A DNA stretch of 64,000 nucleotides from a virus. This document shows, piece by piece, positions 37,765 through 56,009 of the stretch. The stretch's first letter is position 1; each line of letters opens with the position of its first letter. The notes below the pieces were generated by a model. That model was not told where the DNA came from. It did no database searches and worked only from the letters and a program-made list of their open reading frames with translations. The stretch spans positions 1 through 64,000 of IMG/VR virus record IMGVR_UViG_3300024262_000020; one strand, given 5' to 3'. Both the position numbers and the translations under genes were made by a program.

Positions 37765-39885
37765 ATGGAAAGACTTGAAGAATTTATATTAACAAGTGAA
37801 ATAGTTAAGGATATTGAATATAGGGAGAATTTAGGTAAATTATTAAAGAGATATGAAAAACTTTGGTTTTCAAATCTTAAAGGAATTAAAAAAGCTGGAT
37901 TGACTTTTGCCTTTACTGATGATGAATTTGAAGAATATATTAAATGTAAACTGTCAGTTCATTACTTTGCCGAAAAATATTGTAAGATTAAACTTGAAGA
38001 TGGTACTATTGGACATATGACATTACGAGATTACCAAAGAAAGATAATTGATTTATATACAAAGAATAGATATTCAATTTTGATGGCTTCTAGACAGACA
38101 GGTAAAACTGTTTCAGCAGCAATCGTCATATTACATTTTGTGTTATTTAATGACGATAAAGGTGCTATGATTGTTGCAAATAAAGGTAACACAGTAAAAG
38201 AAATTGTAAGAAAAATAAAAGATATTTATAGATTATTACCATTTTTCCTTAAAAAAGGTGTAGTAAATTGGAATGAAAAATCAATCGCTTTTGAAAATAA
38301 TTCAAGAATCCAATCTGAAAATAGAACAAAAGAACCTGCTATTGGTTTTACTATTGATATGTTATATCTTGATGAGTTCGCCCATATTCCAGACAATTAT
38401 GTGAGAGACTATTATGGGGCAATTGTACCTGTTGTTTCTGCGATATCAAATTCAAAAATCATAATAACATCAACCCCTAACGGATATAATTTATTTCATG
38501 ATTTATTAGTGGGTGCTGAAAAGGAGATTGATGATCCTTTGAAAAACCCATATACTGCTATGCGTGTATATTGGCATCAGGTTGATGGTAGACAAGATAC
38601 TCAGATACAAATTATGGCGAATAAACTTAAAAAATATAATTTTAGTAAATCTGGGGTATTAAGAGAATTAAGAGAACAAGGTTTAGGTTTTTATAAGAAA
38701 AAGAAAGGTGACGATATTATTGATTGTGTAAAATATGACCCTGATGACAAAGTGACATATATCGGAGAAATACGAAAAATGAGAGTGTCAGGTATACCAT
38801 TACCTGAAATTGCAATAATAACAAATTGGCAAGAAGAAGAAACAAAACTTATCGGTGGTGAAGAAAAATTTAAACAAGAATATGATCTTCATTTTATTAC
38901 TGGTGATAAATTACTATTTGATAGAATAACTATGGACTCTATTAAGAAGAAAGTCATACCTTTTTATTATACTCCAATACCTCATTTTGATAAAAAATTA
39001 ATTATTCCTTATGAATCATTAAAATGGGTTTCAAATAAACCAGAATTGTTTGATTTACAAAGAGTTAAAGATTATTATATAATGGCGGCTGTTGACTTAG
39101 CAGAAGGTTTAGCACAGGATTATACTGTGTTGAATATTTTCAGATTATTGATGAAATCTAAAGAAGAGATAAAAAGAGATAGTGAGATGTTTGAAAATAT
39201 TTATGATTTATTTAAACTTGAACAAATAGGTATGTATAGAAATAACATATACTCTATTAAAGAGGTTGCTCATATTTTTTATTTACTTGGATTCGAGTTT
39301 TTTGATCCTGAAAGGTTTAAATCTGTATTAGAATATAATACTTATGGTGGTGAATTTTTATCACATTTACCAAATGTGTTTGAAGGTAATAACGAGTTTT
39401 TTAATGCAGTATTTTTAAGATATAAACATAGAAAAGAAGATAAGATGTCTAAAATAGGTATAAAACTTAGTCGTGATAAACATCTAATAGTTGATAAGGA
39501 TTTTCAACAAGCGGTAAAAAAGAGAAAAATGGTAATACATAATGATATAAATATCACAGAAATATCAACATTTAGTAAACAAGTTACACCTGGTGGTAAT
39601 GTTACATATAAAGCCGAAACTGGTAATGATGATTGTGTTATGACAAATGTTTTACTTTCGACAGTTTATGATAATCCAGGATTTAAAAATCTTGTTGATA
39701 TGTATATATCTAGTGAATTGGATGGTGATGTTTTGCAATTTGTTGAGAAATTTGCAGAAGAAACGTCAGGTTCTGCACTTACAGGAAATTTTTCAGCAAT
39801 GAGACAAAAGGTGTATGGTAATAGTCCAAAAAATATATCACCATTTGTGAATAATGTTCCTATTAGAAGAAATCCTTTTGGTTAA
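37765..39885 (+). CDS. terL: Terminase large subunit (T4 gp17-like)
   Basis: LRDYQ, ASRQTGKT Walker A, YLDEFAH Walker B, ITSTPNG, VDLAEG..QDY, NDDCVM nuclease. Confidence 0.95.
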   Translation: MERLEEFILTSEIVKDIEYRENLGKLLKRYEKLWFSNLKGIKKAGLTFAFTDDEFEEYIKCKLSVHYFAEKYCKIKLEDGTIGHMTLRDYQRKIIDLYTKNRYSILMASRQTGKTVSAAIVILHFVLFNDDKGAMIVANKGNTVKEIVRKIKDIYRLLPFFLKKGVVNWNEKSIAFENNSRIQSENRTKEPAIGFTIDMLYLDEFAHIPDNYVRDYYGAIVPVVSAISNSKIIITSTPNGYNLFHDLLVGAEKEIDDPLKNPYTAMRVYWHQVDGRQDTQIQIMANKLKKYNFSKSGVLRELREQGLGFYKKKKGDDIIDCVKYDPDDKVTYIGEIRKMRVSGIPLPEIAIITNWQEEETKLIGGEEKFKQEYDLHFITGDKLLFDRITMDSIKKKVIPFYYTPIPHFDKKLIIPYESLKWVSNKPELFDLQRVKDYYIMAAVDLAEGLAQDYTVLNIFRLLMKSKEEIKRDSEMFENIYDLFKLEQIGMYRNNIYSIKEVAHIFYLLGFEFFDPERFKSVLEYNTYGGEFLSHLPNVFEGNNEFFNAVFLRYKHRKEDKMSKIGIKLSRDKHLIVDKDFQQAVKKRKMVIHNDINITEISTFSKQVTPGGNVTYKAETGNDDCVMTNVLLSTVYDNPGFKNLVDMYISSELDGDVLQFVEKFAEETSGSALTGNFSAMRQKVYGNSPKNISPFVNNVPIRRNPFG

Positions 39886-39948
39886 AAACTTACATTATTT
39901 TAAAACTAATTGTATTCAGTATGATATAAAATAAAAACAATTTACTGA

Positions 39949-40725
39949 ATGGCAAAAACTCAAGCAGTTAATCATTTGTTTTCTATGACAAATGAACAAT
40001 TAAAAAACTTCCTAGATAAAATAAAAGACTTGGTTAGTATTTCTGATGAAGTTTTATTAAAAGTTGATAACCACAATATATTAATGTATTCCTTAGTTGG
40101 TGAGAAGAAAAATGTAAACGCATTTAAATCCTTTATCGTAAAAACTGAAGATTTATTCACTTTTAAAGAAGAGTTGGTGAAACAAATGAAATATATCATA
40201 CCGAATGGTAAAAAATTTGATTCTAATATCAGAAATTTTCTCGATTATAATGAAATACTCAATTGTACTTTTTATATGAATGATGAGGAATATGCTGATA
40301 ATCTACTGATTAAAAATAAATTCTTACGACTAAATCAGATAGGTGGAGATCCAAGAGGTGCAACATTAGATATTGATATTGAACAAGTTAAAGACGCAAT
40401 TGATAAAGATAAATCTGATTTTAAATTTTCTTTACCAAAAGATGTTTTTGAAAAAATTAAAAAAATGTCAAAAATTGAATTGGAGAATGATATTTTATAT
40501 CTTAATATTAAAGATCATATCTTAACTATTGCGGAAAACGCTTGGGAATTAACTGTGTGTGATACTGATCAAAAAGATTTGTCAATTACATTTCCTAAAA
40601 AATATTTTAATTCATTACAAATCCCTAATGGTACAACTGAGGTTGAAGTTTTTGTATTTGATTCATTCTTATTAGTGGATAATGAGAATACAAGCCTTCT
40701 TGTGGCGTTGGAATTATCAATTTAA
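39949..40725 (+). CDS. Probable DNA sliding clamp (gp45/PCNA-like)
   Basis: 258 aa two-domain alpha/beta pattern; no strong motif. Confidence 0.45.
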   Translation: MAKTQAVNHLFSMTNEQLKNFLDKIKDLVSISDEVLLKVDNHNILMYSLVGEKKNVNAFKSFIVKTEDLFTFKEELVKQMKYIIPNGKKFDSNIRNFLDYNEILNCTFYMNDEEYADNLLIKNKFLRLNQIGGDPRGATLDIDIEQVKDAIDKDKSDFKFSLPKDVFEKIKKMSKIELENDILYLNIKDHILTIAENAWELTVCDTDQKDLSITFPKKYFNSLQIPNGTTEVEVFVFDSFLLVDNENTSLLVALELSI

Positions 40726-40728
40726 ATG

Positions 40729-40800
40729 TGACGAGTACGGGATTCGAACCCGTATCTTCGGTTTTAGAGACCGACATTCTGACCATTGAACTAACAAGCC
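40729..40800 (-). tRNA. tRNA-Sup(CUA), amber suppressor, Trp-like body, two acceptor-stem mismatches
   Basis: GGCTTGT-TAGTTCAATGGTCAGAAT-G-TCGGT CTCTAAA ACCGA-AGAT-ACGGG TTCGAAT CCCGT-ACTCGTC-A. Confidence 0.8.
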
Positions 40801-40803
40801 ATT

Positions 40804-40827
40804 AGTCCTGTTTTAACAGGACTTTTC
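40804..40827 (+). terminator. Hairpin terminator for plus-strand transcription
   Basis: AGTCCTG-TTTTAA-CAGGACT-TTT. Confidence 0.55.
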
Positions 40828-41175
40828 TAATTCCTTTAATTTTGCTAATCGTGAAGCATCAACTACGATAACTTCATCAGTTTCTTTAATATATTTCAAT
40901 CGATAAATCCACTCACCTGGTTTGGTTTTTAAAATTGTATATTTTTCCATTTCTAAAATTTGGTCATAACCAACTTTAACCCCATCATATTCAGATTTAT
41001 TTTCCGAATATTTGTTGATAACCGTTAGATAGTTTCCTATCAAATGACCTTCTTCAGGTAGAAGTGTTTTTAATGTGTGTGATTTTGCATTTTCTAAATC
41101 TTTACTTAAAGACCAGAATGTATCACATTTAAAATATACTTTATTATCTTTTAATACTTTACAAACTATGTCCAT
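40813..41175 (-). CDS. Hypothetical protein, RxxKL C-tail
   Basis: ORF track; preceded by TATATTTG promoter. Confidence 0.55.
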   Translation of the reverse strand: MDIVCKVLKDNKVYFKCDTFWSLSKDLENAKSHTLKTLLPEEGHLIGNYLTVINKYSENKSEYDGVKVGYDQILEMEKYTILKTKPGEWIYRLKYIKETDEVIVVDASRLAKLKELEKSC

Positions 41176-41198
41176 ATTTTCAGTTTTTATTTATGTTG

Positions 41199-41206
41199 CA
41201 AATATA
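41199..41206 (-). promoter_or_regulatory. Bacteroidota-type -7 promoter element (TAnnTTTG)
   Basis: TATATTTG; same motif at 45839, 46688, 52153, 53740 and 56278 upstream of minus-strand genes. Confidence 0.65.
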
Positions 41207-41329
41207 CAATAATTTTTTAAAATAAAAAGGGTGTGATAGAAATTTTTCAATTAATTGAGATTAACCTTTGCAACGAGGTATTTCTATCTGATACTTTATA
41301 GTATTATCTCATAAACATTTTACACCCTT

Positions 41330-41380
41330 TTATAGTGTCCAGAGACTATAAACACTATTTATAGTCTCTGGACACTATAA
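41330..41380. repeat. Perfect 23-bp inverted repeat with 5-nt loop
   Basis: TTATAGTGTCCAGAGACTATAAA-CACTA-TTTATAGTCTCTGGACACTATAA. Confidence 0.95.
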
Positions 41381-41383
41381 CTA

Positions 41384-41845
41384 TTAAAAAGTGAAAAGTT
41401 CTTGTCTTTTCTGTCTTTCTTTGTAGTAATCACCTTTTTCAGTTTTATATTCCAAAAGTGCGTTTTCTGCTTCATCACGAAGTTTTAACCATTCTTTTCT
41501 TTTCTTTTGAATTTCTTCTTCTTTCAAAGATTTTCTGATTTGAACTTTTTCAATTGGTTCAAAAGTTTTATATAAAAGGTGTAAAAGTGAATTGACATTT
41601 CTTAATGTCATTTTCTTATTGACACCATTTAAATATTTATTAACTTTCTTTAATTGATTTTTTGAAAGATTGTGAGTTGAAATTGGCATATTTTTATATA
41701 TGTTGATATCACCAACAATTCTATAATCCATTATTCTCACCCAAGTTTCAATTTTTTCAAGTGTTTTGTTAATTTTTGCTTTTAATTCTGTTTCTGTATA
41801 TACATATACATTTTCTGTGTTTTCTGTTCTTTCTAAAGTTTTCAT
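41384..41845 (-). CDS. Hypothetical basic protein
   Basis: ORF track; AAGGAG SD upstream. Confidence 0.6.
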   Translation of the reverse strand: MKTLERTENTENVYVYTETELKAKINKTLEKIETWVRIMDYRIVGDINIYKNMPISTHNLSKNQLKKVNKYLNGVNKKMTLRNVNSLLHLLYKTFEPIEKVQIRKSLKEEEIQKKRKEWLKLRDEAENALLEYKTEKGDYYKERQKRQELFTF

Positions 41846-41863
41846 GTTTTTTCTCCTTATTTT

Positions 41864-42130
41864 TTAAATGTTTTTTATTAAATCTAATTTTTCTTTTCTT
41901 AATTTTCTGACAACATCTTCTACTGGTATTGATGCGTAATATTGATCAGAGTCACCACATCGATTATATGAGTAATATCTTAAATCAAATTCATCACCAT
42001 CAAAGTCAACATCAGGATAATATCCACTTAGATCATCTCCGTATTTGTCACCATTTGTCATTTCTGCTAAGAAATCGATGAACCATTCATCTTCATTATC
42101 TACCCATTCATTCATTTTATCTACTAACAT
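41864..42130 (-). CDS. Hypothetical acidic protein, RKEKL C-tail
   Basis: ORF track. Confidence 0.55.
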   Translation of the reverse strand: MLVDKMNEWVDNEDEWFIDFLAEMTNGDKYGDDLSGYYPDVDFDGDEFDLRYYSYNRCGDSDQYYASIPVEDVVRKLRKEKLDLIKNI

Positions 42131-42186
42131 AATTTTTAATTTTTTTGTTTTATTTAAATAATTTTAATTCTCTGGCTAGATAATTT

Positions 42187-50171: not shown

Positions 50172-50255
50172 TCCGCCTGGGAGGATTCGAACCCCCGTTG
50201 TTGTTTCCAACCCTGATTAAAAGTCAGGAGCATAAGCCAACTCTGCCACAGACGG
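50172..50255 (-). tRNA. tRNA-Lys(UUU) with long variable arm
   Basis: CCTGA CTTTTAA TCAGG; variable arm GTTG GAAA CAAC. Confidence 0.85.
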
Positions 50256-50318
50256 ATATTGGTAGATTTGCATTTTCTTCCGAAGAATGTGGGAATGATA
50301 CTACCATAAAACCACAAG

Positions 50319-50393
50319 TGCGCCTGGTAGGATTCGAACCTACAACCCACAGGGTAAAAACCTGTTGCTCTGCGCTTTTGGAGCTACAGACGC
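50319..50393 (-). tRNA. tRNA-Lys(UUU), atypical loop UUUUUAC
   Basis: ACAGG TTTTTAC CCTGT; D-loop lacks GG. Confidence 0.8.
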
Positions 50394-50408
50394 TTGTTAT
50401 TCAATTTG

Positions 50409-50490
50409 TGCGCCCAGTAGGAATCGAACCTACGTTGATGTTTCCATCCCTGATTAAGAGTCAGGAGCATAGCCGCTCTGCCACGGACGC
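50409..50490 (-). tRNA. tRNA-Lys(CUU) with long variable arm
   Basis: CCTGA CTCTTAA TCAGG; variable arm GATG GAAA CATC. Confidence 0.85.
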
Positions 50491-50566
50491 ATATTGTTAG
50501 ACACAGGTACTCCCGAACAGGGGAATTGATTTTTATAGCCACTTCGGGACGACTAACAATTTTTTG

Positions 50567-50638
50567 GGTGTAACCTCGGTATTGATCCGAGTTCTCTAGA
50601 TTCACAGTCTAGCACATCACCTTAATGCTTGAAACACC
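50567..50638 (-). tRNA. tRNA-His(GUG), G-1, atypical T-loop
   Basis: CTAGA CTGTGAA TCTAG; C73. Confidence 0.8.
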
Positions 50639-50672
50639 ATATGAATTCGCAATTCGTGAATTGCGAATTATG

Positions 50673-50759
50673 CACACCCGTAGGGATTCGAACCCTCACC
50701 TATATTGCTACTCAAAAGAACGGGGTTGGAGCCCGCAGGTCACGCCAATGAGCGGATGT
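50673..50759 (-). tRNA. Atypical tRNA-Trp(CCA) with long variable region
   Basis: ACATCCG/CGGGTGT acceptor, GCGGG CTCCAAC CCCGT, G73. Confidence 0.65.
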
Positions 50760-50763
50760 ATTT

Positions 50764-50839
50764 TGGTGGAGAACTCAGGTTACGCTCCTGATCCTCTGGT
50801 TTTTCAGACCAGTGCTTCTACTAAGTTAGCTTCTTCTCC
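50764..50839 (-). tRNA. tRNA-Phe(GAA), atypical T-loop AGCGTAA
   Basis: CTGGT CTGAAAA ACCAG; encoded CCA. Confidence 0.8.
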
Positions 50840-50840
50840 A

Positions 50841-51491
50841 TTATTTTATTTTTCTACCTTTTATCCAACCTGATGATAGATATTTTTCTAAATCTTCTTT
50901 TCTAATTTTAATACTTTTGTCTTTATTCATAACCCAACAAGTTCCAAATTGTGAATTTTTCTCTCCTTTTTGTTTAATTGAATTTTTCTCTCCTATTTTT
51001 CTTTTTGTTTCTTCAGAATGTTTTTTATCATTCCAATTATAAAAATATAATTTTTCCCTTACACCATCATCATATTGTTTCAATAATGCAATTTTTATAC
51101 TATTACATTTCTTTTTATACCATTCTTTGTCATTTTCTTTAAGCCATTTTTGTTTTTCATTTGATTTATCTGCATTTTTTCTTTGTTCTTCTGATGAAAA
51201 TCCACCAAATCCCCCCGTTCTTAAATTCATACAATTTTTATCTGATATTACATTTTCGTTTACAAATTCTTTTTCTTTTTCTAATAATGCATCTCTATCG
51301 TCAAAGAATTCTATTATTTCTATTTTAAAATTTTCTTCACCATATTTATTTATACTTCTTCTTAAATATTTTCCTGAGCCTAAATAACCATCTTTTAAGT
51401 TTTTTGTACTATGTACTCCATAATAATATTTATTATTTATCAAATTTGTCGTCTTATAGAAAAAATGATATTTTTTTGATTTTTTTGTCAT
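50841..51491 (-). CDS. GIY-YIG homing endonuclease (Seg-like, NUMOD3)
   Basis: FFYKTTNLINNKYYYGVH...YLGSG...KYG.ENF; KHSEETKRKIG. Confidence 0.9.
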   Translation of the reverse strand: MTKKSKKYHFFYKTTNLINNKYYYGVHSTKNLKDGYLGSGKYLRRSINKYGEENFKIEIIEFFDDRDALLEKEKEFVNENVISDKNCMNLRTGGFGGFSSEEQRKNADKSNEKQKWLKENDKEWYKKKCNSIKIALLKQYDDGVREKLYFYNWNDKKHSEETKRKIGEKNSIKQKGEKNSQFGTCWVMNKDKSIKIRKEDLEKYLSSGWIKGRKIK

Positions 51492-51541
51492 TTTTAATCT
51501 TTTTTATTTGTATATATTAAATAAAAAAGATTAAAAATGAC
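51487..51541. repeat. Perfect 23-bp inverted repeat covering the GIY-YIG start codon, TATATA motif in loop
   Basis: GTCATTTTTAATCTTTTTTATTT-GTATATATT-AAATAAAAAAGATTAAAAATGAC. Confidence 0.9.
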
Positions 51542-51545
51542 CCGT

Positions 51546-51633
51546 GGTGTTAGACGGGACTCGAACCCGCAAGGAATTTTACTTCACCAGAGTCACAATC
51601 TGGACCGTTAGCCTATTACGGAACTACTAACAC
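51546..51633 (-). tRNA. Atypical tRNA-His(GUG) with long variable arm
   Basis: CCAGA TTGTGAC TCTGG; GTGTTAG/CTAACAC acceptor; C73. Confidence 0.75.
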
Positions 51634-51635
51634 AG

Positions 51636-51723
51636 CGGAAAGTGGAGGACTCGATCCCCACCCGATTTAACGAGACCTTGTTTTCAAGACAAGTCGCACC
51701 TCCATGGCACTGCTTCACTTTCC
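51636..51723 (-). tRNA. tRNA-Ser(UGA), atypical D-arm and T-loop
   Basis: CTTGT CTTGAAA ACAAG; G73; long variable arm. Confidence 0.8.
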
Positions 51724-51763
51724 AATTATTTCAAGATGTCAAAGAACAAAAGTTCACTAAAGT

Positions 51764-51795
51764 AAAAAAACCTGAACTTTTAAGTTCAGGTTTTT
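51764..51795 (-). terminator. Attenuator terminator upstream of the tRNA array
   Basis: CCTGAACT-TAAA-AGTTCAGG-TTTTTTT. Confidence 0.85.
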
Positions 51796-51819
51796 CCTTT
51801 TATCTTATATGAAAAATTT

Positions 51820-51918
51820 TTATTTCATATGATTTGAATAAGGCATAATAAACCTGAACTTGGTTTTGTGTGAACTAAACCAGAACGAAAATTTACTATG
51901 TTTACTTATTGCCATCAT
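51820..51918 (-). CDS. Leader peptide of the tRNA array (MMAISKHSKFSFWFSSHKTKFRFIMPYSNHMK)
   Basis: AGGAG SD upstream; 14-codon S/K/H/F/W-only run; contains AAGTTCAGGTTT complementary to the terminator 5' arm. Confidence 0.85.
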   Translation of the reverse strand: MMAISKHSKFSFWFSSHKTKFRFIMPYSNHMK

Positions 51919-51979
51919 TTTAGATTTCTCCTATTTTTTTGTTTATATATTTTAATTTTAAAGTCTCTTTTTTCTATTT

Positions 51980-52123
51980 TTACAATTCTCTTACTTCTTC
52001 AATTGTTTCTTCGATTTCTGTTATTTCATAACCTCTTTCTTCTTCCCAGTTTAAAAAGTTGTAATAATTACCTGTATGGTCTAAATAATCCAACAATTCG
52101 TTTAACAATTCTTCTCTATCCAT
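51980..52123 (-). CDS. Small acidic protein (47 aa)
   Basis: MDREELLNELLDYLDHTGNYYNFLNWEEERG...; TATATTTG promoter at 52153-52160. Confidence 0.55.
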   Translation of the reverse strand: MDREELLNELLDYLDHTGNYYNFLNWEEERGYEITEIEETIEEVREL

Positions 52124-52195
52124 TTTTATTAATTTATTTTTTAATTAGACTGCAAATATACGACTATTTATGATAAAAAAAAGTTTTTGTTTAAT

Positions 52196-52687
52196 TTATT
52201 TGAAAATTTTATACATTTTATTTTCAAATCCTATTGTTGCGTTGTATAATTCTTTGTTATTCATATAATCATTTTCATCATATCTACCAATAATTTCTAT
52301 TGATGAACCTTTACCTGCGTTTGGACCGTCACAAAATAGTAGAAATTCATATCCCATATATTCAAATTTCCAAATTTTATAAAAAAATTCACCTCTGAAA
52401 GTGCCATTTTGTTGTCCAAATTGTTTTTTTGCTTTATTATAATCAATTCCGTGTATAACATGATTATATTCCATTTGATCTTGGAATTGTTTTTTTGTTC
52501 TTGGTCGTCTTTGTGCATATTTAGAATTCCATACAATATTCCAAATATTCATAGTGTTAATATTTTCCACGTTAATTTTACCAGGTATATGTGTGAGAAC
52601 ACCATCACCATCTGCTCCACCTTCAGTTGTGGTTTTATTTATTAAATTCTTTCCAATTTGTTTAATGTGATCTCTAAATGATTTCAT
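52196..52687 (-). CDS. Hypothetical protein (MKSFRDHI N-tag)
   Basis: ORF track. Confidence 0.55.
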   Translation of the reverse strand: MKSFRDHIKQIGKNLINKTTTEGGADGDGVLTHIPGKINVENINTMNIWNIVWNSKYAQRRPRTKKQFQDQMEYNHVIHGIDYNKAKKQFGQQNGTFRGEFFYKIWKFEYMGYEFLLFCDGPNAGKGSSIEIIGRYDENDYMNNKELYNATIGFENKMYKIFK

Positions 52688-52688
52688 A

Positions 52689-53012
52689 TTATTCTTTAAT
52701 TTTAAAATTAAATGTTGTGTAGTTAGAATCTTTTGGTGTTGATATTACTTCATATCCATTATATTCAGCGGCTTTCAAAAATTTTATAATAAATTCTTGT
52801 TTTAGTTGTTCGTTTGGTAATGTAAATGGTGGTGACAATTTGCCTGGTTTTAAACCATAACTATTTATTAATTTAAAAGCCTTTTCAATAACTCCATCGT
52901 ATTCTTCGGGAGTATATTTTCTTTCCCAACCTCTTAACATATTGACTAACTTTATAAAGTTATAAGAATTTTTAATAAAATTTTCATTGAACATTTTCCA
53001 GTTGTGTAACAT
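52689..53012 (-). CDS. Hypothetical protein (WKMFNE N-tag)
   Basis: ORF track. Confidence 0.5.
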   Translation of the reverse strand: MLHNWKMFNENFIKNSYNFIKLVNMLRGWERKYTPEEYDGVIEKAFKLINSYGLKPGKLSPPFTLPNEQLKQEFIIKFLKAAEYNGYEVISTPKDSNYTTFNFKIKE

Positions 53013-53028
53013 AATTATTATTTTTATT

Positions 53029-53529
53029 TTATATATTATTAATTGTTTCTAATTTCTTTTTTCTTATTAATTTAATATTTGTTTCTTCAGTGATTTTTTC
53101 ACCATTTTGTTTTTTAAATTCTACCTTAATTTTATAAGGTTTATTATTTATTAGAAATAATGACACATAGAATCCACCTGTGGAACTTGTGGAAGGATTA
53201 TATGTGAAAGTGGATTTTTCACATATACCACCTATTAAACTAAGTACACAAGATTTTAAATTTTTGATAGTTGGTGTTGTTTTTCTATCTTGCCAAGTCC
53301 AATTAACTGATTTCATATGATTCTCAACTGTTTCAAAATCAAATCTTTCTATAATATCCTCAAGTAAATCCCTTATATTGACTTTATCTATAAGTTTCCA
53401 ATATTCTATTTCATATAATGGTTCTAAATATGTTTCCCAGTAATTGTGCCAATTTTCATTTCTATCTTTATCAGTATATTTTTCTTGATAATCTTTAAAA
53501 GAAATTACATTTTTATCGTCAATTTTCAT
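53029..53529 (-). CDS. Hypothetical protein (paralogue of 30049..30402), RKKKL C-tail
   Basis: IIERFDFETV..HM...NWTW...SSTGG. Confidence 0.6.
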   Translation of the reverse strand: MKIDDKNVISFKDYQEKYTDKDRNENWHNYWETYLEPLYEIEYWKLIDKVNIRDLLEDIIERFDFETVENHMKSVNWTWQDRKTTPTIKNLKSCVLSLIGGICEKSTFTYNPSTSSTGGFYVSLFLINNKPYKIKVEFKKQNGEKITEETNIKLIRKKKLETINNI

Positions 53530-53531
53530 TT

Positions 53532-53735
53532 TTAATTTATTAATAGTTCATTTGAGATTACCCACCCACAATCGTCAACTAAGGTTGTGTCATATATTAT
53601 ACTGTAATCTTTATCAAGAGTTTCGATTGAATAATTTTTTCTTAATTTCTTAATGAAATTACATTCTTTTTTGGTATTTATACCGAACATGAGTTGTGCT
53701 ATTTGCCAATCTTTTATTTCTTCATTAATTTCCAT
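53532..53735 (-). CDS. Hypothetical protein
   Basis: ORF track; TAATTTTG promoter immediately upstream. Confidence 0.45.
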   Translation of the reverse strand: MEINEEIKDWQIAQLMFGINTKKECNFIKKLRKNYSIETLDKDYSIIYDTTLVDDCGWVISNELLIN

Positions 53736-53761
53736 AATGCAAAATTATGAAAAATATTTAA

Positions 53762-53964
53762 TAAAAAAAATGGTTCCTAACCAGGTATTATTTCAACATA
53801 GTCGGTACCCTACTACGAGAAACAATACCTATTAGGATCACTTGACATGATTCGGAATCAAACGGAAAGACTGGCAACTCTGTACCTCACCGATAGTTAA
53901 GTGTACGTTGACACATCATTTTCGGTTTCTTATTGATTCACTTTCCAGTTATCACCTTATACCA
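53762..53964 (-). ncRNA. Putative structured ncRNA ending in a hairpin and U-tract
   Basis: GC-enriched, GGAAAG/CTTTCC, GAATCA/TGATTC, TCCTAA..GGTATT/AATACC..TTAGGA stems. Confidence 0.4.
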
Positions 53965-54037
53965 TTAATATATATTAATGCATGTAAGTCTTAAAAGTTT
54001 GCTAAATATTTTAATATATATGTAAAAGTAATTTATA

Positions 54038-54916
54038 GTGATGAAAATTATAAGAGAATTTAAAGATTTTGGTAGAAAAATATATGAAACTAATGAAGAA
54101 TGTCCTTTTCTTTTTACAGAATCGTCAACTGATGAAGATTTCCATCAAGCAATATTAGATGTTGGTTATAATTGGTGGCAAGGTAGTGATGTAAAATCAT
54201 ATAGTGAAATGGTTTATAAAATGGAGAAAGAATTTGGATATAAATTTGCGTTATTGATATTGTTAGGTAAATATAATCAACAGGTTGGTAATGGTGGACA
54301 TATTCAATATTTTGATAATGGTTATGCATCTGCGGGTAGTAGTGGATATGGTGGTAATCATAAAGATATTGAATTACATGAACAAATGATTGAATGGTTT
54401 AAGAAAGCAGGATTAGATGAAACTGAATTAGGTAAAAATATATTTGTTGTTATGGAGGATTCTGGTGATGTATTTGGACATTTAAGTGAGGGTGATGAAA
54501 GATGTGATGAATGTAATGGAGATGGTGAAGTTGAAGAAGATTGTTATGAATGTGATCGTGGTGTGATTATGGATAGTTGTGGTAATTGTAGTGGTGAAGG
54601 TGAATATGAAGGTGATGATGGTGAAATTGAAGATTGTCCTGAATGTAATGGTGAAGGTGAAATAGAACAAGATTGTCCTGAATGTGGTGGAGATGGTACT
54701 GTTTATAATTCTTGTGAAGAATGTGATGGTAGTGGTTATATAAATCCAGCAGATAGTTATTCAGGTGAGTTAGATAGATTAGATAGTAAATATTATAAGA
54801 TTGATGGTTGGGAAGATCATTTAAATAAGTTTGCAAAGGATATCATTATTGAAAAATATCCTGAAGAATGGGAAAAATTTAAAATAAGAAGAAGTGCAAA
54901 TAAATATAATTTATGA
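54038..54916 (+). CDS. DMP19/DUF4375-like protein with inserted DnaJ-type CxxCxGxG zinc finger; KYNL C-tag
   Basis: YNQQVGNGGHIQYFDN; repeated CxECxGxG. Confidence 0.65.
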   Translation: MMKIIREFKDFGRKIYETNEECPFLFTESSTDEDFHQAILDVGYNWWQGSDVKSYSEMVYKMEKEFGYKFALLILLGKYNQQVGNGGHIQYFDNGYASAGSSGYGGNHKDIELHEQMIEWFKKAGLDETELGKNIFVVMEDSGDVFGHLSEGDERCDECNGDGEVEEDCYECDRGVIMDSCGNCSGEGEYEGDDGEIEDCPECNGEGEIEQDCPECGGDGTVYNSCEECDGSGYINPADSYSGELDRLDSKYYKIDGWEDHLNKFAKDIIIEKYPEEWEKFKIRRSANKYNL

Positions 54917-55281
54917 AATATTTAAAATTATTTGAAGATAAAAAATATAGTAAAAATCTATATTATGAGAGTGAATTAGATTCCATATTAAAGGATGACT
55001 GGAAAGAATTGTCAATAACAAGGGACACTATAAATTTTGAAGTTGGTGAAGGTTATGATAAAGGATACAAGTATTCTGTATTTTTTGAAGGTCAATGTTC
55101 TGATAATGATATATTTTTGGAAGAAACTGCAATTCCTAAATTTATCAAAAAATTCAAAGAGGAATTCCAGAAAAATCCAGAAAAATATTCTCATAATTTT
55201 AAAGTTGGTAGATTTAAACGTGATCCTAAATTTATGGGGGATTTATCTCATTTTAGAGAAACTGAAAAATACAATTTATAA
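54913..55281 (+). CDS. Hypothetical protein, KLFE N-tag and KYNL C-tag
   Basis: ORF track. Confidence 0.6.
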   Translation: MKYLKLFEDKKYSKNLYYESELDSILKDDWKELSITRDTINFEVGEGYDKGYKYSVFFEGQCSDNDIFLEETAIPKFIKKFKEEFQKNPEKYSHNFKVGRFKRDPKFMGDLSHFRETEKYNL

Positions 55282-56009
55282 TGGCTGAAAATAAACAAAA
55301 ATTACCCATAATAAAAAATAGAGAACAATTAAAGATGGTTATTGATGGCTTGAGTGATCAAGGTTTTGGATATTATGTTGGTGATTGGAAAGCACATGAA
55401 TATAAGGTGTCTAACTTAATTAATAAAAATAATACTCTTGGTATAGAAGAAGATAAATTTAAATCTAAGTTGAATGAATTGGTTTCTAATATGACAGATT
55501 ATGATGAAATTGATAAAACTATTAAGAATTTTTTCCAAAAATTTAAGCCAGATGATAAAATAAAAGAATTAATAAATCATTATTATTTAAAACCAGATGC
55601 ATCATGTAGAAAACCTTCATCATCACCAAGTAAAAAGGAAATTATAGATTGGGTTAAATTTAAAAGAAAGTATAATATAAAAGGTGAGCCTGATTTTGAT
55701 TGGTCTGCGGATGTGTATAATTTGGATAAGAATTTTGTTAAAGTAAATGATTATGATTCTAATTTTGATTTTGAAAAATTGTATAGATTATTATACAATG
55801 AAGAACCTAATGATTTTTCGTTGAAAAATCTTGGAGATTGGCAAGATTTGGGAAAAATCGAAATAAAGGTTTTTCAAAATGGAACAATCAATATTAAAGG
55901 TGATATTGATAAATTAAAATCTTATCTTTATAAGGAGATAAGAAATTTTGATTGTATTGTTTATTATAATAAGAAAAAGGAGATTAGAGAAAGACGAGAA
56001 AGAGATTAA
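55281..56009 (+). CDS. Hypothetical protein (possible DUF4942-like)
   Basis: IKVFQNGTINIK motif near the C-terminus. Confidence 0.45.
   Translation: MAENKQKLPIIKNREQLKMVIDGLSDQGFGYYVGDWKAHEYKVSNLINKNNTLGIEEDKFKSKLNELVSNMTDYDEIDKTIKNFFQKFKPDDKIKELINHYYLKPDASCRKPSSSPSKKEIIDWVKFKRKYNIKGEPDFDWSADVYNLDKNFVKVNDYDSNFDFEKLYRLLYNEEPNDFSLKNLGDWQDLGKIEIKVFQNGTINIKGDIDKLKSYLYKEIRNFDCIVYYNKKKEIRERRERD

What the first reader, a model, noticed from the sequence alone, without database searches (positions are those of the whole stretch)
51764..51934. Leader-peptide attenuator that reads the same five amino acids as the phage tRNA array it controls
Seen: directly upstream of the 14-tRNA array (4 Ser, 4 Lys, 2 His, 2 Phe, 2 Trp, nothing else) is an SD-preceded 32-codon ORF, MMAI-SKHSKFSFWFSSHK-TKFRFIMPYSNHMK. 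Codons 5-18 (AGT AAA CAT AGT AAA TTT TCG TTC TGG TTT AGT TCA CAC AAA) encode only S/K/H/F/W, all five are present, and every codon can be read by an anticodon in the array. Codons 20-23 (AAGTTCAGGTTT, 51850-51861) are the exact 12-nt complement of the 5' arm of an intrinsic terminator (AAACCTGAACTT...AGTTCAGG-U7, 51764-51795) lying between the leader and the first tRNA. Known: trp/his-type attenuators have this logic, and host defences (PrrC, RloC, PARIS AriB, VapC-type toxins) destroy tRNAs that phage tRNAs can replace. Inference: ribosome stalling in the sensor run frees the antiterminator, so the phage transcribes replacement tRNAs only when the host's cognate tRNAs are cleaved or uncharged. 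I know of no described attenuator controlling a phage tRNA operon.
Basis: partly seen in the sequence, partly recalled or inferred. Interest (0 to 1): 0.96.

Follow-up and report, generated by a model that had tools for sequence, protein, structure and literature searches.

The report
Codon-matched attenuator gating phage tRNA array
A tiny test gene written almost entirely in serine, lysine, histidine, phenylalanine and tryptophan codons, joined to a switchable transcription stop, sits in front of a phage's block of tRNA genes for exactly those five amino acids, so the phage probably makes these tRNAs only when ribosomes read those codons slowly; I found no published account of this trp-operon-style control for tRNA genes.

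Summary
The 32-codon ORF (51918-51820, minus strand) holds the longest Ser/Lys/His/Phe/Trp run in all six frames of the 87.6-kb contig. It lies directly upstream of 14 tRNA genes of only those five isotypes.

The RNA folds as a classical four-segment attenuator. The sensor codons pair with segment 2. Segment 2 can instead pair with the terminator's 5' arm.

Fifteen further units in related uncultured phages keep the ORF, its composition and the terminator. The antiterminator helix is kept through compensatory changes: 6 of 7 pairs, 0 of 500 shuffles as good.

In larger relatives, other tRNA arrays carry unrelated leaders spelled in their own isotypes (Ala/Val/Arg/Gly/Thr/Pro; Asp/Gln/Cys/Leu/Ile/Glu/Asn). 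An SKHFW array that gained tRNA-Ile has three Ile codons in its sensor run.

Translation, termination and read-through are inferred, because no RNA data exist. The link to host tRNA nucleases is untested.

Other agents of this scan reported the same device on at least eight other genomes. Six full-text literature searches found no published description. The mechanism is classical; the target (tRNA genes, sorted by isotype, in phages) is new.

The parts
51943..51980 (-). Conserved promoter-like box (AAAATAGAAAAA ... ATATATAA) just 5' of the leader
   Evidence: The same box precedes the leaders in L025, L047, L074, L061, L137, L094, L140, L162, L163, L164, L165 and L166. The strict pattern occurs once in the window, against 0.02 expected. 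Contig depth doubles over it in the source metagenome, so it is a repeated motif there. A promoter role is inferred.
51928..51932 (-). AGGAG, 9 nt upstream of the ATG
   Evidence: Read directly from the sequence. It is not conserved in relatives, which have TAGAAATC before the ATG.
51820..51918 (-). Leader ORF, 32 codons plus TAA
   Evidence: An ORF of 24-36 codons is kept in all 21 units examined.
51865..51906 (-). Sensor run, codons 5-18, only Ser/Lys/His/Phe/Trp
   Evidence: Longest such run in six frames of the contig; simulated maxima were 7-11.
51877..51900 (-). Segment 1: sensor codons 7-14, which pair with segment 2
   Evidence: Minimum-energy fold: a 12-bp helix 51900-51889 with 51855-51844, plus inner pairs 51883-51877 with 51866-51859. 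The whole leader has z = -4.97 against shuffles.
51844..51866 (-). Segment 2: antiterminator strand (core 51861-51850, codons 20-23)
   Evidence: 12 of 12 complementary to 51793-51782. Duplex -15.3 kcal/mol against -7.6 +/- 2.1 for shuffled ORFs. The same relative position pairs in all 13 homologues tested.
51807..51830 (-). Hairpin that holds the leader's stop codon (TAA 51822-51820)
   Evidence: 8-bp helix 51830-51823 with 51814-51807. A hairpin over or beside the stop codon recurs in most relatives, each with a different sequence.
51782..51797 (-). Segment 3: terminator 5' arm, shared with the antiterminator
51764..51779 (-). Segment 4: terminator 3' arm and U7 tract
   Evidence: On alignment A1 the terminator and the inner 1:2 helix together are 92% paired, with 7 pairs changed on both sides and 0 of 500 shuffles as good.
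51732..51747 (-). Conserved box GTTCTTTGACATCTTG between terminator and first tRNA (function unknown)
   Evidence: It recurs after the terminators of L047, L094, L129, L137, L140, L163 and L166, and once inside an array. Contig depth doubles over it.
48645..51723 (-). Regulated unit: 14 tRNA genes (Ser x4, Lys x4, His x2, Phe x2, Trp x2), interrupted by a GIY-YIG (50841-51491) and an HNH (48961-49725) endonuclease gene

Best explanation
This is a ribosome-mediated (leader-peptide) transcription attenuator that gates a phage tRNA operon. Transcription starts just upstream of, or reads into, a 32-codon leader.

The RNA has four segments:
- Segment 1 is the sensor codons, 51900-51877.
- Segment 2 is 51866-51844.
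- Segment 3 is the terminator's 5' arm, 51797-51782.
- Segment 4 is the 3' arm plus U7, 51779-51764.

Slow decoding: if Ser, Lys, His, Phe or Trp codons are decoded slowly, the ribosome stalls on segment 1. Slow decoding could follow from too little charged cognate tRNA, whatever the cause. Segment 2 is then free and pairs with segment 3. The terminator cannot form, and RNA polymerase runs on into the 14 tRNA genes for those same five amino acids.

Fast decoding, or no translation: if decoding is fast, the ribosome runs over segment 2 to the stop codon. If no ribosome loads, segments 1 and 2 pair. In both cases segments 3 and 4 form the terminator and transcription ends at 51764.

Feedback: because the products are the tRNAs that the leader tests, the circuit is a negative-feedback loop. 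It supplies these tRNAs on demand.

What is shown: the ORF, its composition, the three alternative helices, their conservation and covariation, and the match between leader and array across unrelated arrays.

What is inferred: translation of the leader, termination at the U-tract, stalling-dependent read-through and the promoter.
For: 1. Composition. The 14-codon run is the longest in six frames of the contig and exceeds all 60 simulations. 14 of 18 sensor codons match the array, P = 2.6e-6.
2. Architecture. The minimum-energy fold gives a 1:2 helix over the sensor codons, a hairpin at the stop codon and the terminator, z = -4.97. With the 3' arm withheld, a 12-bp 2:3 helix forms (-21.4 kcal/mol including the enclosed hairpin, against -17.0 for the terminator).
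3. Conservation. Covariance model R1 recovers 16 units (the window plus 15). These include tandem pairs in L071 and L140, and all sit directly upstream of Lys/Phe/Trp/Ser/His arrays.
4. Position of the duplex. In each of 13 units the best duplex between the ORF and the terminator's 5' arm falls right after the sensor run (it starts at codons 18-24). The fraction of shuffled ORFs that do as well is at most 0.05 in every unit.
5. Covariation of the antiterminator on the model-fitted alignment A2:
   - 94.5% of cells are paired, against 79.5 +/- 1.9 in shuffles.
   - 6 of 7 pairs change on both sides.
   - Covariation score is 0.432 against 0.170, with 0 of 500 shuffles as high.
   - Sliding the partner by one column drops pairing to 69% or 51%, with 0 or 1 double changes.
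   - Helix sequences differ between lineages, for example AAGTTCAGG (window), GAGTTTGGA (L025), GGTTCGGA (L061) and GACTTAGA (L054). Each is matched by its own terminator arm.
6. Leader-array covariation:
   - L163: the array's main isotypes are Pro/Val/Ala/Thr/Gly/Arg; 21 of 26 sensor codons match the full array set, which also holds Leu and Ile.
   - L166: array Ala/Val/Arg/Gly/Thr/Pro; 18 of 26 match.
   - L164: array Asp/Lys/Gln/Cys/Leu/Ile/Glu/Asn/Met; 22 of 26 match.
   - Against arrays of a different isotype class the same leaders score 1-10.
   - L054 has an SKHFW array plus tRNA-Ile(GAT), and its sensor run holds three ATT codons.
   - A second leader in L165, rich in Lys and Ser, stands in front of a Lys, Lys, Ser, Ser, Ser sub-array.
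7. The peptide downstream of the sensor run is not conserved. It follows the sequence of segment 2 (KFRF, EFGT, QGSE, GLRI in different lineages). The constraint there is therefore on RNA, not on protein.
Against: There is no expression evidence. No RNA run holds this DNA, so translation, 3' ends at 51764 and read-through have not been seen.

In the window the stop codon lies 27 nt past segment 2. A ribosome waiting at the stop would not itself cover segment 2, so termination then depends on timing or on 1:2 re-pairing behind the ribosome.

Stalls at the last sensor codons (about codons 16-18) would mask segment 2 instead of freeing it.

A conserved box between the terminator and the first tRNA (51747-51732) could be a second promoter, which would bypass the attenuator.

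On the plain MAFFT alignment the antiterminator signal is weaker: 83.5% paired, 3 of 500 shuffles as good. The strong figures come from an alignment fitted to the model.

The homologous SKHFW units are related by descent, so they are not independent samples. The independent support comes from the three unrelated leader classes.

The first two tRNAs behind the attenuator are atypical.
Confidence: 0.8

Rival explanations
1. Same device, narrower trigger. The attenuator is an alarm for host tRNA-targeting defences. It opens only when anticodon nucleases such as PrrC, RloC or PARIS AriB destroy the host's Ser, Lys, His, Phe or Trp tRNAs, and the array supplies nuclease-resistant replacements.
For: The device senses decoding speed of those codons, so nuclease attack would trip it (an inference). 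Several array tRNAs have odd bodies: long variable regions on Lys, His and Trp tRNAs. That could reflect evasion. Lys tRNA is a known nuclease target (my own knowledge of PrrC and PARIS).
Against: Larger relatives put nearly all isotypes under such leaders, including Ala/Val/Gly/Thr/Pro/Arg and Asp/Gln/Cys/Leu/Ile/Glu/Asn sets. No known nuclease spectrum explains that; general supply control does. No defence or anti-defence gene was tied to the locus here. No nuclease with a Ser/Lys/His/Phe/Trp spectrum is known to me.
Confidence: 0.15
2. The ORF encodes a functional micropeptide, and the hairpin is an ordinary terminator or insulator. The match to the tRNA isotypes is incidental.
For: The N-terminal half of the peptide is fairly conserved among the SKHFW units (a ...KHSKSFKFW... 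core).
Against: Residue order in the run varies while its composition is kept (window, L094, L054). The C-terminal half follows the RNA helix and not a peptide pattern. Unrelated leaders in front of other arrays match those arrays instead. The segment inside the ORF co-varies with the terminator.
Confidence: 0.03
3. A translation-independent RNA switch that binds tRNAs directly, like a T-box. Codon-like triplets in the leader would pair with anticodons of uncharged tRNAs and stabilise the antiterminator.
For: T-box leaders also couple tRNA status to a terminator/antiterminator choice (my own knowledge).
Against: No T-box or other Rfam family reached E <= 1 apart from a sub-threshold terminator-like match to Thr_leader (25.2 bits against a gathering score of 55). 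An ATG, an open frame and a stop codon are conserved in all 21 units. Fourteen consecutive in-frame sensor codons of five isotypes fit a ribosome, not a single specifier loop.
Confidence: 0.03
4. Chance: a spurious small ORF beside the terminator of the upstream operon.
For: AT-rich DNA gives many Lys, Phe and Ser codons. Small ORFs are everywhere.
Against: The run is the genome-wide maximum and lies beyond all simulations. The unit is conserved and co-varies in 15 further units.
Confidence: 0.01

Closest known systems
Multivalent leader-peptide attenuators of enterobacterial amino-acid operons (ilvGMEDA leader: Ile/Leu/Val; thr leader: Thr/Ile; also trpL, hisL, pheL, leuL)
   Same: A short translated leader enriched in regulatory codons of several amino acids. 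The same 1:2, 2:3 and 3:4 alternative helices, an intrinsic terminator with a U-tract, and stalling that favours the antiterminator (textbook knowledge; the architecture here comes).
   Different: The regulated genes are tRNA genes, not biosynthetic enzymes, so the output feeds straight back on the signal. Five isotypes are mixed in one run instead of tandem repeats of one or two codons. The element is phage-borne and comes as a set of parallel units, one per isotype-sorted array. There is no sequence or Rfam similarity: Thr_leader scores 25.2 bits against 55 needed.
pheST (pheM leader) attenuator of E. coli phenylalanyl-tRNA synthetase
   Same: A leader-peptide attenuator that controls a component of the translation apparatus in response to the supply of charged tRNA (my own knowledge).
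   Different: It senses one amino acid and controls a synthetase, not tRNA genes. It is cellular, not viral.
T-box riboswitches
   Same: tRNA status decides between terminator and antiterminator upstream of translation-related genes.
   Different: T-boxes bind uncharged tRNA directly and need no translation. Here a conserved ORF is the sensor, and no T-box match was found.
Inducible long tRNA array (trn operon) of Anabaena sp. PCC 7120
   Same: An accessory tRNA array that is silent by default and switched on when translation is impaired (PMC8421152; PMC10272220).
   Different: Control there is by a ribbon-helix-helix protein repressor, TrcR, acting at the promoter. The paper does not contain the terms 'leader peptide' or 'attenuat'.
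Phage T4 tRNA gene cluster with segB
   Same: A phage tRNA cluster interrupted by a GIY-YIG homing endonuclease. The 216-aa ORF at 50841-51491 matches segB-type genes of T4-like phages at the DNA level.
   Different: No leader-peptide attenuator is described for the T4 cluster (my own knowledge; none found).

Membership tests
Ribosome-mediated (leader-peptide) transcription attenuator | Short ORF with a start codon in the 5' leader of the regulated genes | tested here: met
   32-codon ORF at 51918-51820, 96 nt upstream of the first tRNA. An ORF is kept in all 21 units examined.
Ribosome-mediated (leader-peptide) transcription attenuator | Enrichment of codons for the amino acid(s) to which the regulated genes relate | tested here: met
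   14 of 18 sensor codons, P = 2.6e-6. The own-array against foreign-array matrix is strongly diagonal.
Ribosome-mediated (leader-peptide) transcription attenuator | Intrinsic terminator between the leader ORF and the regulated genes | tested here: met
   15-bp stem plus U7, -17 kcal/mol. Present in every homologue.
Ribosome-mediated (leader-peptide) transcription attenuator | Antiterminator helix mutually exclusive with the terminator, supported by covariation | tested here: met
   12-bp 2:3 helix. 6 of 7 pairs have compensatory changes, and 0 of 500 shuffles do as well. The signal is weaker on the unfitted alignment.
Ribosome-mediated (leader-peptide) transcription attenuator | Anti-antiterminator (1:2) helix that overlaps the regulatory codons, so that a stalled ribosome frees segment 2 | tested here: met
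   51900-51889 pairs with 51855-51844. The homologous Phe-Trp codons pair with the ACCAAGG segment in relatives.
Ribosome-mediated (leader-peptide) transcription attenuator | Leader is translated; read-through rises when cognate charged tRNA is scarce | not testable with these tools
   No RNA run holds the DNA. This needs Ribo-seq, Term-seq or reporter assays.
Rfam leader families (Thr_leader, Trp_leader, His_leader, and others) | Score at or above the family's gathering threshold | tested here: not met
   The only match is Thr_leader at 25.2 bits against 55 needed, E = 0.51, and it covers the terminator only.
T-box riboswitch | Match to the T-box covariance model (specifier loop plus T-box antiterminator bulge) | tested here: not met
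   No T-box match at E <= 1 in 38000-56000.

The most novel reading that the evidence does not exclude
A clade of large uncultured phages sorts its tRNA genes into isotype-specific operons. It puts each operon behind its own codon-matched leader-peptide attenuator. This would give a set of parallel, self-correcting feedback loops that top up exactly those tRNAs whose codons are being read slowly. The window holds the Ser/Lys/His/Phe/Trp module of that system. Attenuation of tRNA genes by a leader that tests their own products has not been described in print.
Probability: 0.75. Interest if true: 0.9.

Novelty: new variant of a known kind. Interest (0 to 1): 0.85.

Why it matters
Phage tRNA genes are usually discussed as a fixed supplement, either for codon-usage matching or for replacing degraded or cleaved host tRNAs. 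How their expression is controlled is almost unstudied.

A leader peptide that tests the decoding of the very codons its operon's tRNAs read would make tRNA supply demand-driven and self-limiting. That extends the trp/his/ilv paradigm to a new class of target genes and to viruses. It would also explain why these phages sort tRNA genes into fixed isotype sets.

The idea can be tested directly with reporter fusions. It gives a sequence signature (leader composition equals array isotypes) for finding such units in metagenomes. It also offers compact, programmable sensors of the availability of individual tRNAs for synthetic biology.

Tried and rejected
- The phage GenBank collection (blastn, distant mode) gave only homing-endonuclease and tRNA fragments, with no homologous locus.
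- The search for related loci with the upstream 163-aa protein found nothing.
- The exact terminator sequence found nothing in viral contigs.
- The DUF7487 neighbour found 14 loci, none syntenic and none with arrays.
- TerL relatives and a leader pattern scan (about 20 of 95 hits were true) were the routes that worked.
- Sigma-70 promoter scan: 38 sites against 32 expected, so uninformative.
- A loose search for the promoter-like box in the contig was too noisy to call a promoter class.
- Sequencing runs: no RNA holder is listed. Laying DNA contigs of four runs showed a diverged relative with changes in segment 2 and indels in the terminator, but the variant could not be reconstructed from the tables, so it is not used as evidence.
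- MAFFT alignment A1 misaligns segment 2 of the window, of L054 and of the L025 group, so the antiterminator counts on it are weak. I replaced it with the model-fitted alignment A2, which leans towards the structure.
- L167 (mixed arrays of the 345-kb relative): a quick look found no convincing leader.
I dropped that step, so no P value is given for that leader.
- First script run: timed out and was repeated in a faster form.

Full report
**Setting.** The window is the first 64 kb of an 87,615-bp virus contig of 27% G+C. It carries a large terminase at 37765-39885, tail and baseplate genes, and densely packed ORFs. The finding lies on the minus strand, between a block of small ORFs and a tRNA array.

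**The observation.**
AGGAG lies 9 nt before the ATG.
- Codons 5-18 encode only Ser, Lys, His, Phe and Trp. This 14-codon run is the longest of its kind in all six frames of the contig; the next is 9. Sixty Markov simulations of the contig gave maxima of 7-11.
- The array needs care. Default ARAGORN reports 9 of its genes. Rfam at the E-value threshold and relaxed ARAGORN agree on 14 tRNA-like genes between 51723 and 48645: four Ser, four Lys, two His, two Phe and two Trp.
- Two endonuclease genes interrupt the array: a GIY-YIG (SegB-like) gene and an HNH gene.
- One His-like gene has a poor acceptor stem, and several tRNAs have long variable regions.
- The terminator (51797-51764, 15 bp plus U7, -17 kcal/mol) and the 12-nt copy of its 3' arm inside the ORF (51861-51850) are exact.

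**Architecture.**
- The minimum-energy fold of the leader has z = -4.97 against dinucleotide shuffles.
- It pairs sensor codons 7-10 (51900-51889) with 51855-51844, and 51883-51877 with 51866-51859. It places the stop codon in an 8-bp hairpin (51830-51807) and forms the terminator.
- If the terminator's 3' arm is withheld, 51861-51850 pairs with 51793-51782 around the stop hairpin (-21.4 kcal/mol).
- This is the classical 1:2, 2:3, 3:4 design. A ribosome held on segment 1 frees segment 2 for the antiterminator. A ribosome that runs through, or no ribosome at all, allows the terminator.

**Relatives.**
- Nothing close exists in GenBank phages. Terminase relatives in IMG/VR (53-92% identity) carry arrays of the same five isotypes.
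- Scanning their six frames for runs of the five residues found a leader ORF directly upstream of each array.
- A DNA pattern taken from the leaders found more. Covariance model R1 then recovered 16 units in all, including two tandem pairs in L071 and L140.
- Every unit has an ATG, 24-35 codons, a sensor run of the five residues, a hairpin at or beside the stop codon in most, and a terminator with a U-tract.

**Covariation of the switch.**
- In 13 of 13 units the strongest duplex between the ORF and the terminator's 5' arm lies right after the sensor run. The fraction of shuffled ORFs that do as well is at most 0.05 in each.
- The helix sequence differs between lineages: AAGTTCAGG here, GAGTTTGGA in L025, GGTTCGGA in L061 and GACTTAGA in L054. 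Each is matched by its own terminator arm.
- Some of the co-varying positions lie in the terminator loop. They therefore pair only in the antiterminator.
- On the model-fitted alignment, 94.5% of cells pair, 6 of 7 pairs change on both sides and no shuffle of 500 does as well. Sliding the partner by one column removes the signal.
- On the raw MAFFT alignment the antiterminator signal is weak because of misalignment. The terminator plus inner 1:2 helix are strongly supported there.
- The peptide encoded by segment 2 changes with the helix. The constraint there is on RNA.

**Covariation of leader and array.**
- Three larger relatives (155-345 kb, rated 22-48% complete, so these are very large phages) keep their tRNAs in several arrays sorted by isotype.
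- The arrays examined upstream, except the mixed arrays of L167, have their own leader, terminator and in-ORF copy of the terminator arm. These leaders are unrelated in sequence, but each is spelled in its own array's amino acids:
  - L163 (array mainly Pro/Val/Ala/Thr/Gly/Arg, plus Leu and Ile): 21 of 26.
  - L166 (Ala/Val/Arg/Gly/Thr/Pro): 18 of 26.
  - L164 (Asp/Lys/Gln/Cys/Leu/Ile/Glu/Asn/Met): 22 of 26.
  - L165 (His/Trp/Phe/Lys/Ser): 13 of 18.
- Against arrays of a different isotype class the same leaders score 1-10. Binomial P is 1e-3 to 3e-6 for each.
- Within the SKHFW family, the one array that also holds tRNA-Ile(GAT), in L054, has three ATT codons in its sensor run.
- In L165 a second leader, rich in Lys and Ser, precedes a Lys-Lys-Ser-Ser-Ser sub-array.

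**Interpretation.**
- The element is a leader-peptide attenuator in every structural respect that can be tested in silico. It is placed to control transcription of the tRNAs that its own codons require. Control is therefore demand-driven and self-limiting.
- I put 0.8 on this mechanism.
- The physiological trigger is open. It could be loss of host tRNAs during a long infection, a mismatch of codon usage, amino-acid limitation or nuclease attack.
- Relatives control nearly all isotypes this way, so general supply control fits better than a response to one anticodon nuclease.
- Why Ser, Lys, His, Phe and Trp form a fixed set remains unexplained.

**Weak points.**
- There are no RNA data.
- In the window the stop codon lies 27 nt beyond segment 2. 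Termination during smooth translation therefore depends on timing or on 1:2 re-pairing.
- A conserved box between the terminator and the first tRNA (51747-51732) might be a promoter that bypasses the switch. It recurs in many relatives.
- The SKHFW units share descent, so they are not independent samples.

**Novelty.**
- Six full-text searches found no account of leader-peptide attenuation of tRNA genes, in phages or in cells.
- The nearest published case is the stress-induced tRNA array of Anabaena, which is controlled by the protein repressor TrcR.
- Other agents of this scan have reported the same device on at least eight other genomes. This report is a further, independent confirmation on new DNA.
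- It adds three observations: tandem units, the Ile case and a leader in front of a sub-array.
- The mechanism is a known kind. Its target and its modular, isotype-sorted deployment are new.

Noticed in passing
window 50408-50490, 50171-50255, 51546-51629, 50672-50759: Lys(CTT), Lys(TTT), His and Trp tRNAs of 83-88 nt have class-II-like D arms or long variable regions. They sit beside normal-length (72-77 nt) copies of the same isotypes. The same pairing of long and normal versions recurs in relatives. Purpose unknown.
   Followed up: partly
window 51732-51747 (-); also L047, L094 (twice), L129, L137, L140, L163, L166, and inside the L164 array: A conserved box, GTTCTTTGA(C/A)AT.TTG, lies immediately after the attenuator terminators and once after a tRNA. 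Contig depth doubles over it in the source metagenome. It could be a promoter, a processing site or a protein-binding site.
   Followed up: partly
L071 3500-3179 (-) and L140 8904-9217 (+): Two complete leader-plus-terminator units stand in tandem in front of one array. This may be double gating.
   Followed up: partly
L165 3209-3347 (+): A second, shorter leader rich in Lys and Ser, with a terminator, lies inside the His/Trp/Phe/Lys/Ser array of the 345-kb relative. It sits just before the Lys, Lys, Ser, Ser, Ser genes.
   Followed up: partly
window 50841-51491 (-) and 48961-49725 (-): GIY-YIG (SegB-like, with a NUMOD3 motif) and HNH homing-endonuclease genes lie inside the tRNA array, as segB does in phage T4. 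They would be co-transcribed after read-through.
   Followed up: partly
window 40728-40800 (-); L017, L019, L020, L026, L028, L029, L031, L051, L052, L168: A tRNA with anticodon CUA (amber suppressor type) is conserved a few kb downstream of the terminase gene in relatives. It is often duplicated.
   Followed up: no
L015-L066 (terminase matches): Many terminase relatives match only from residue 115 onward. In some loci (L023, L026, L031) the match spans about 1 kb more DNA than the gene needs. This suggests a split gene or an inserted element such as an intron, intein or endonuclease.
   Followed up: no
window 52153-52160 (-); L054, L129, L094 upstream regions: TAnnTTTG motifs of the Bacteroidota -7 promoter type lie upstream of the 47-aa ORF that precedes the leader, and upstream of leaders in some relatives. 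Relatives lack a Shine-Dalgarno sequence before the leader ATG. Both point to a Bacteroidota-like host.
   Followed up: no
window 44469-44510 (-): A box similar to the leader's promoter-like element (TAGAAAA ... ATATATAA, then GAAATCATG) precedes the peptidyl-tRNA-hydrolase-like gene that other first-stage notes flagged.
   Followed up: no
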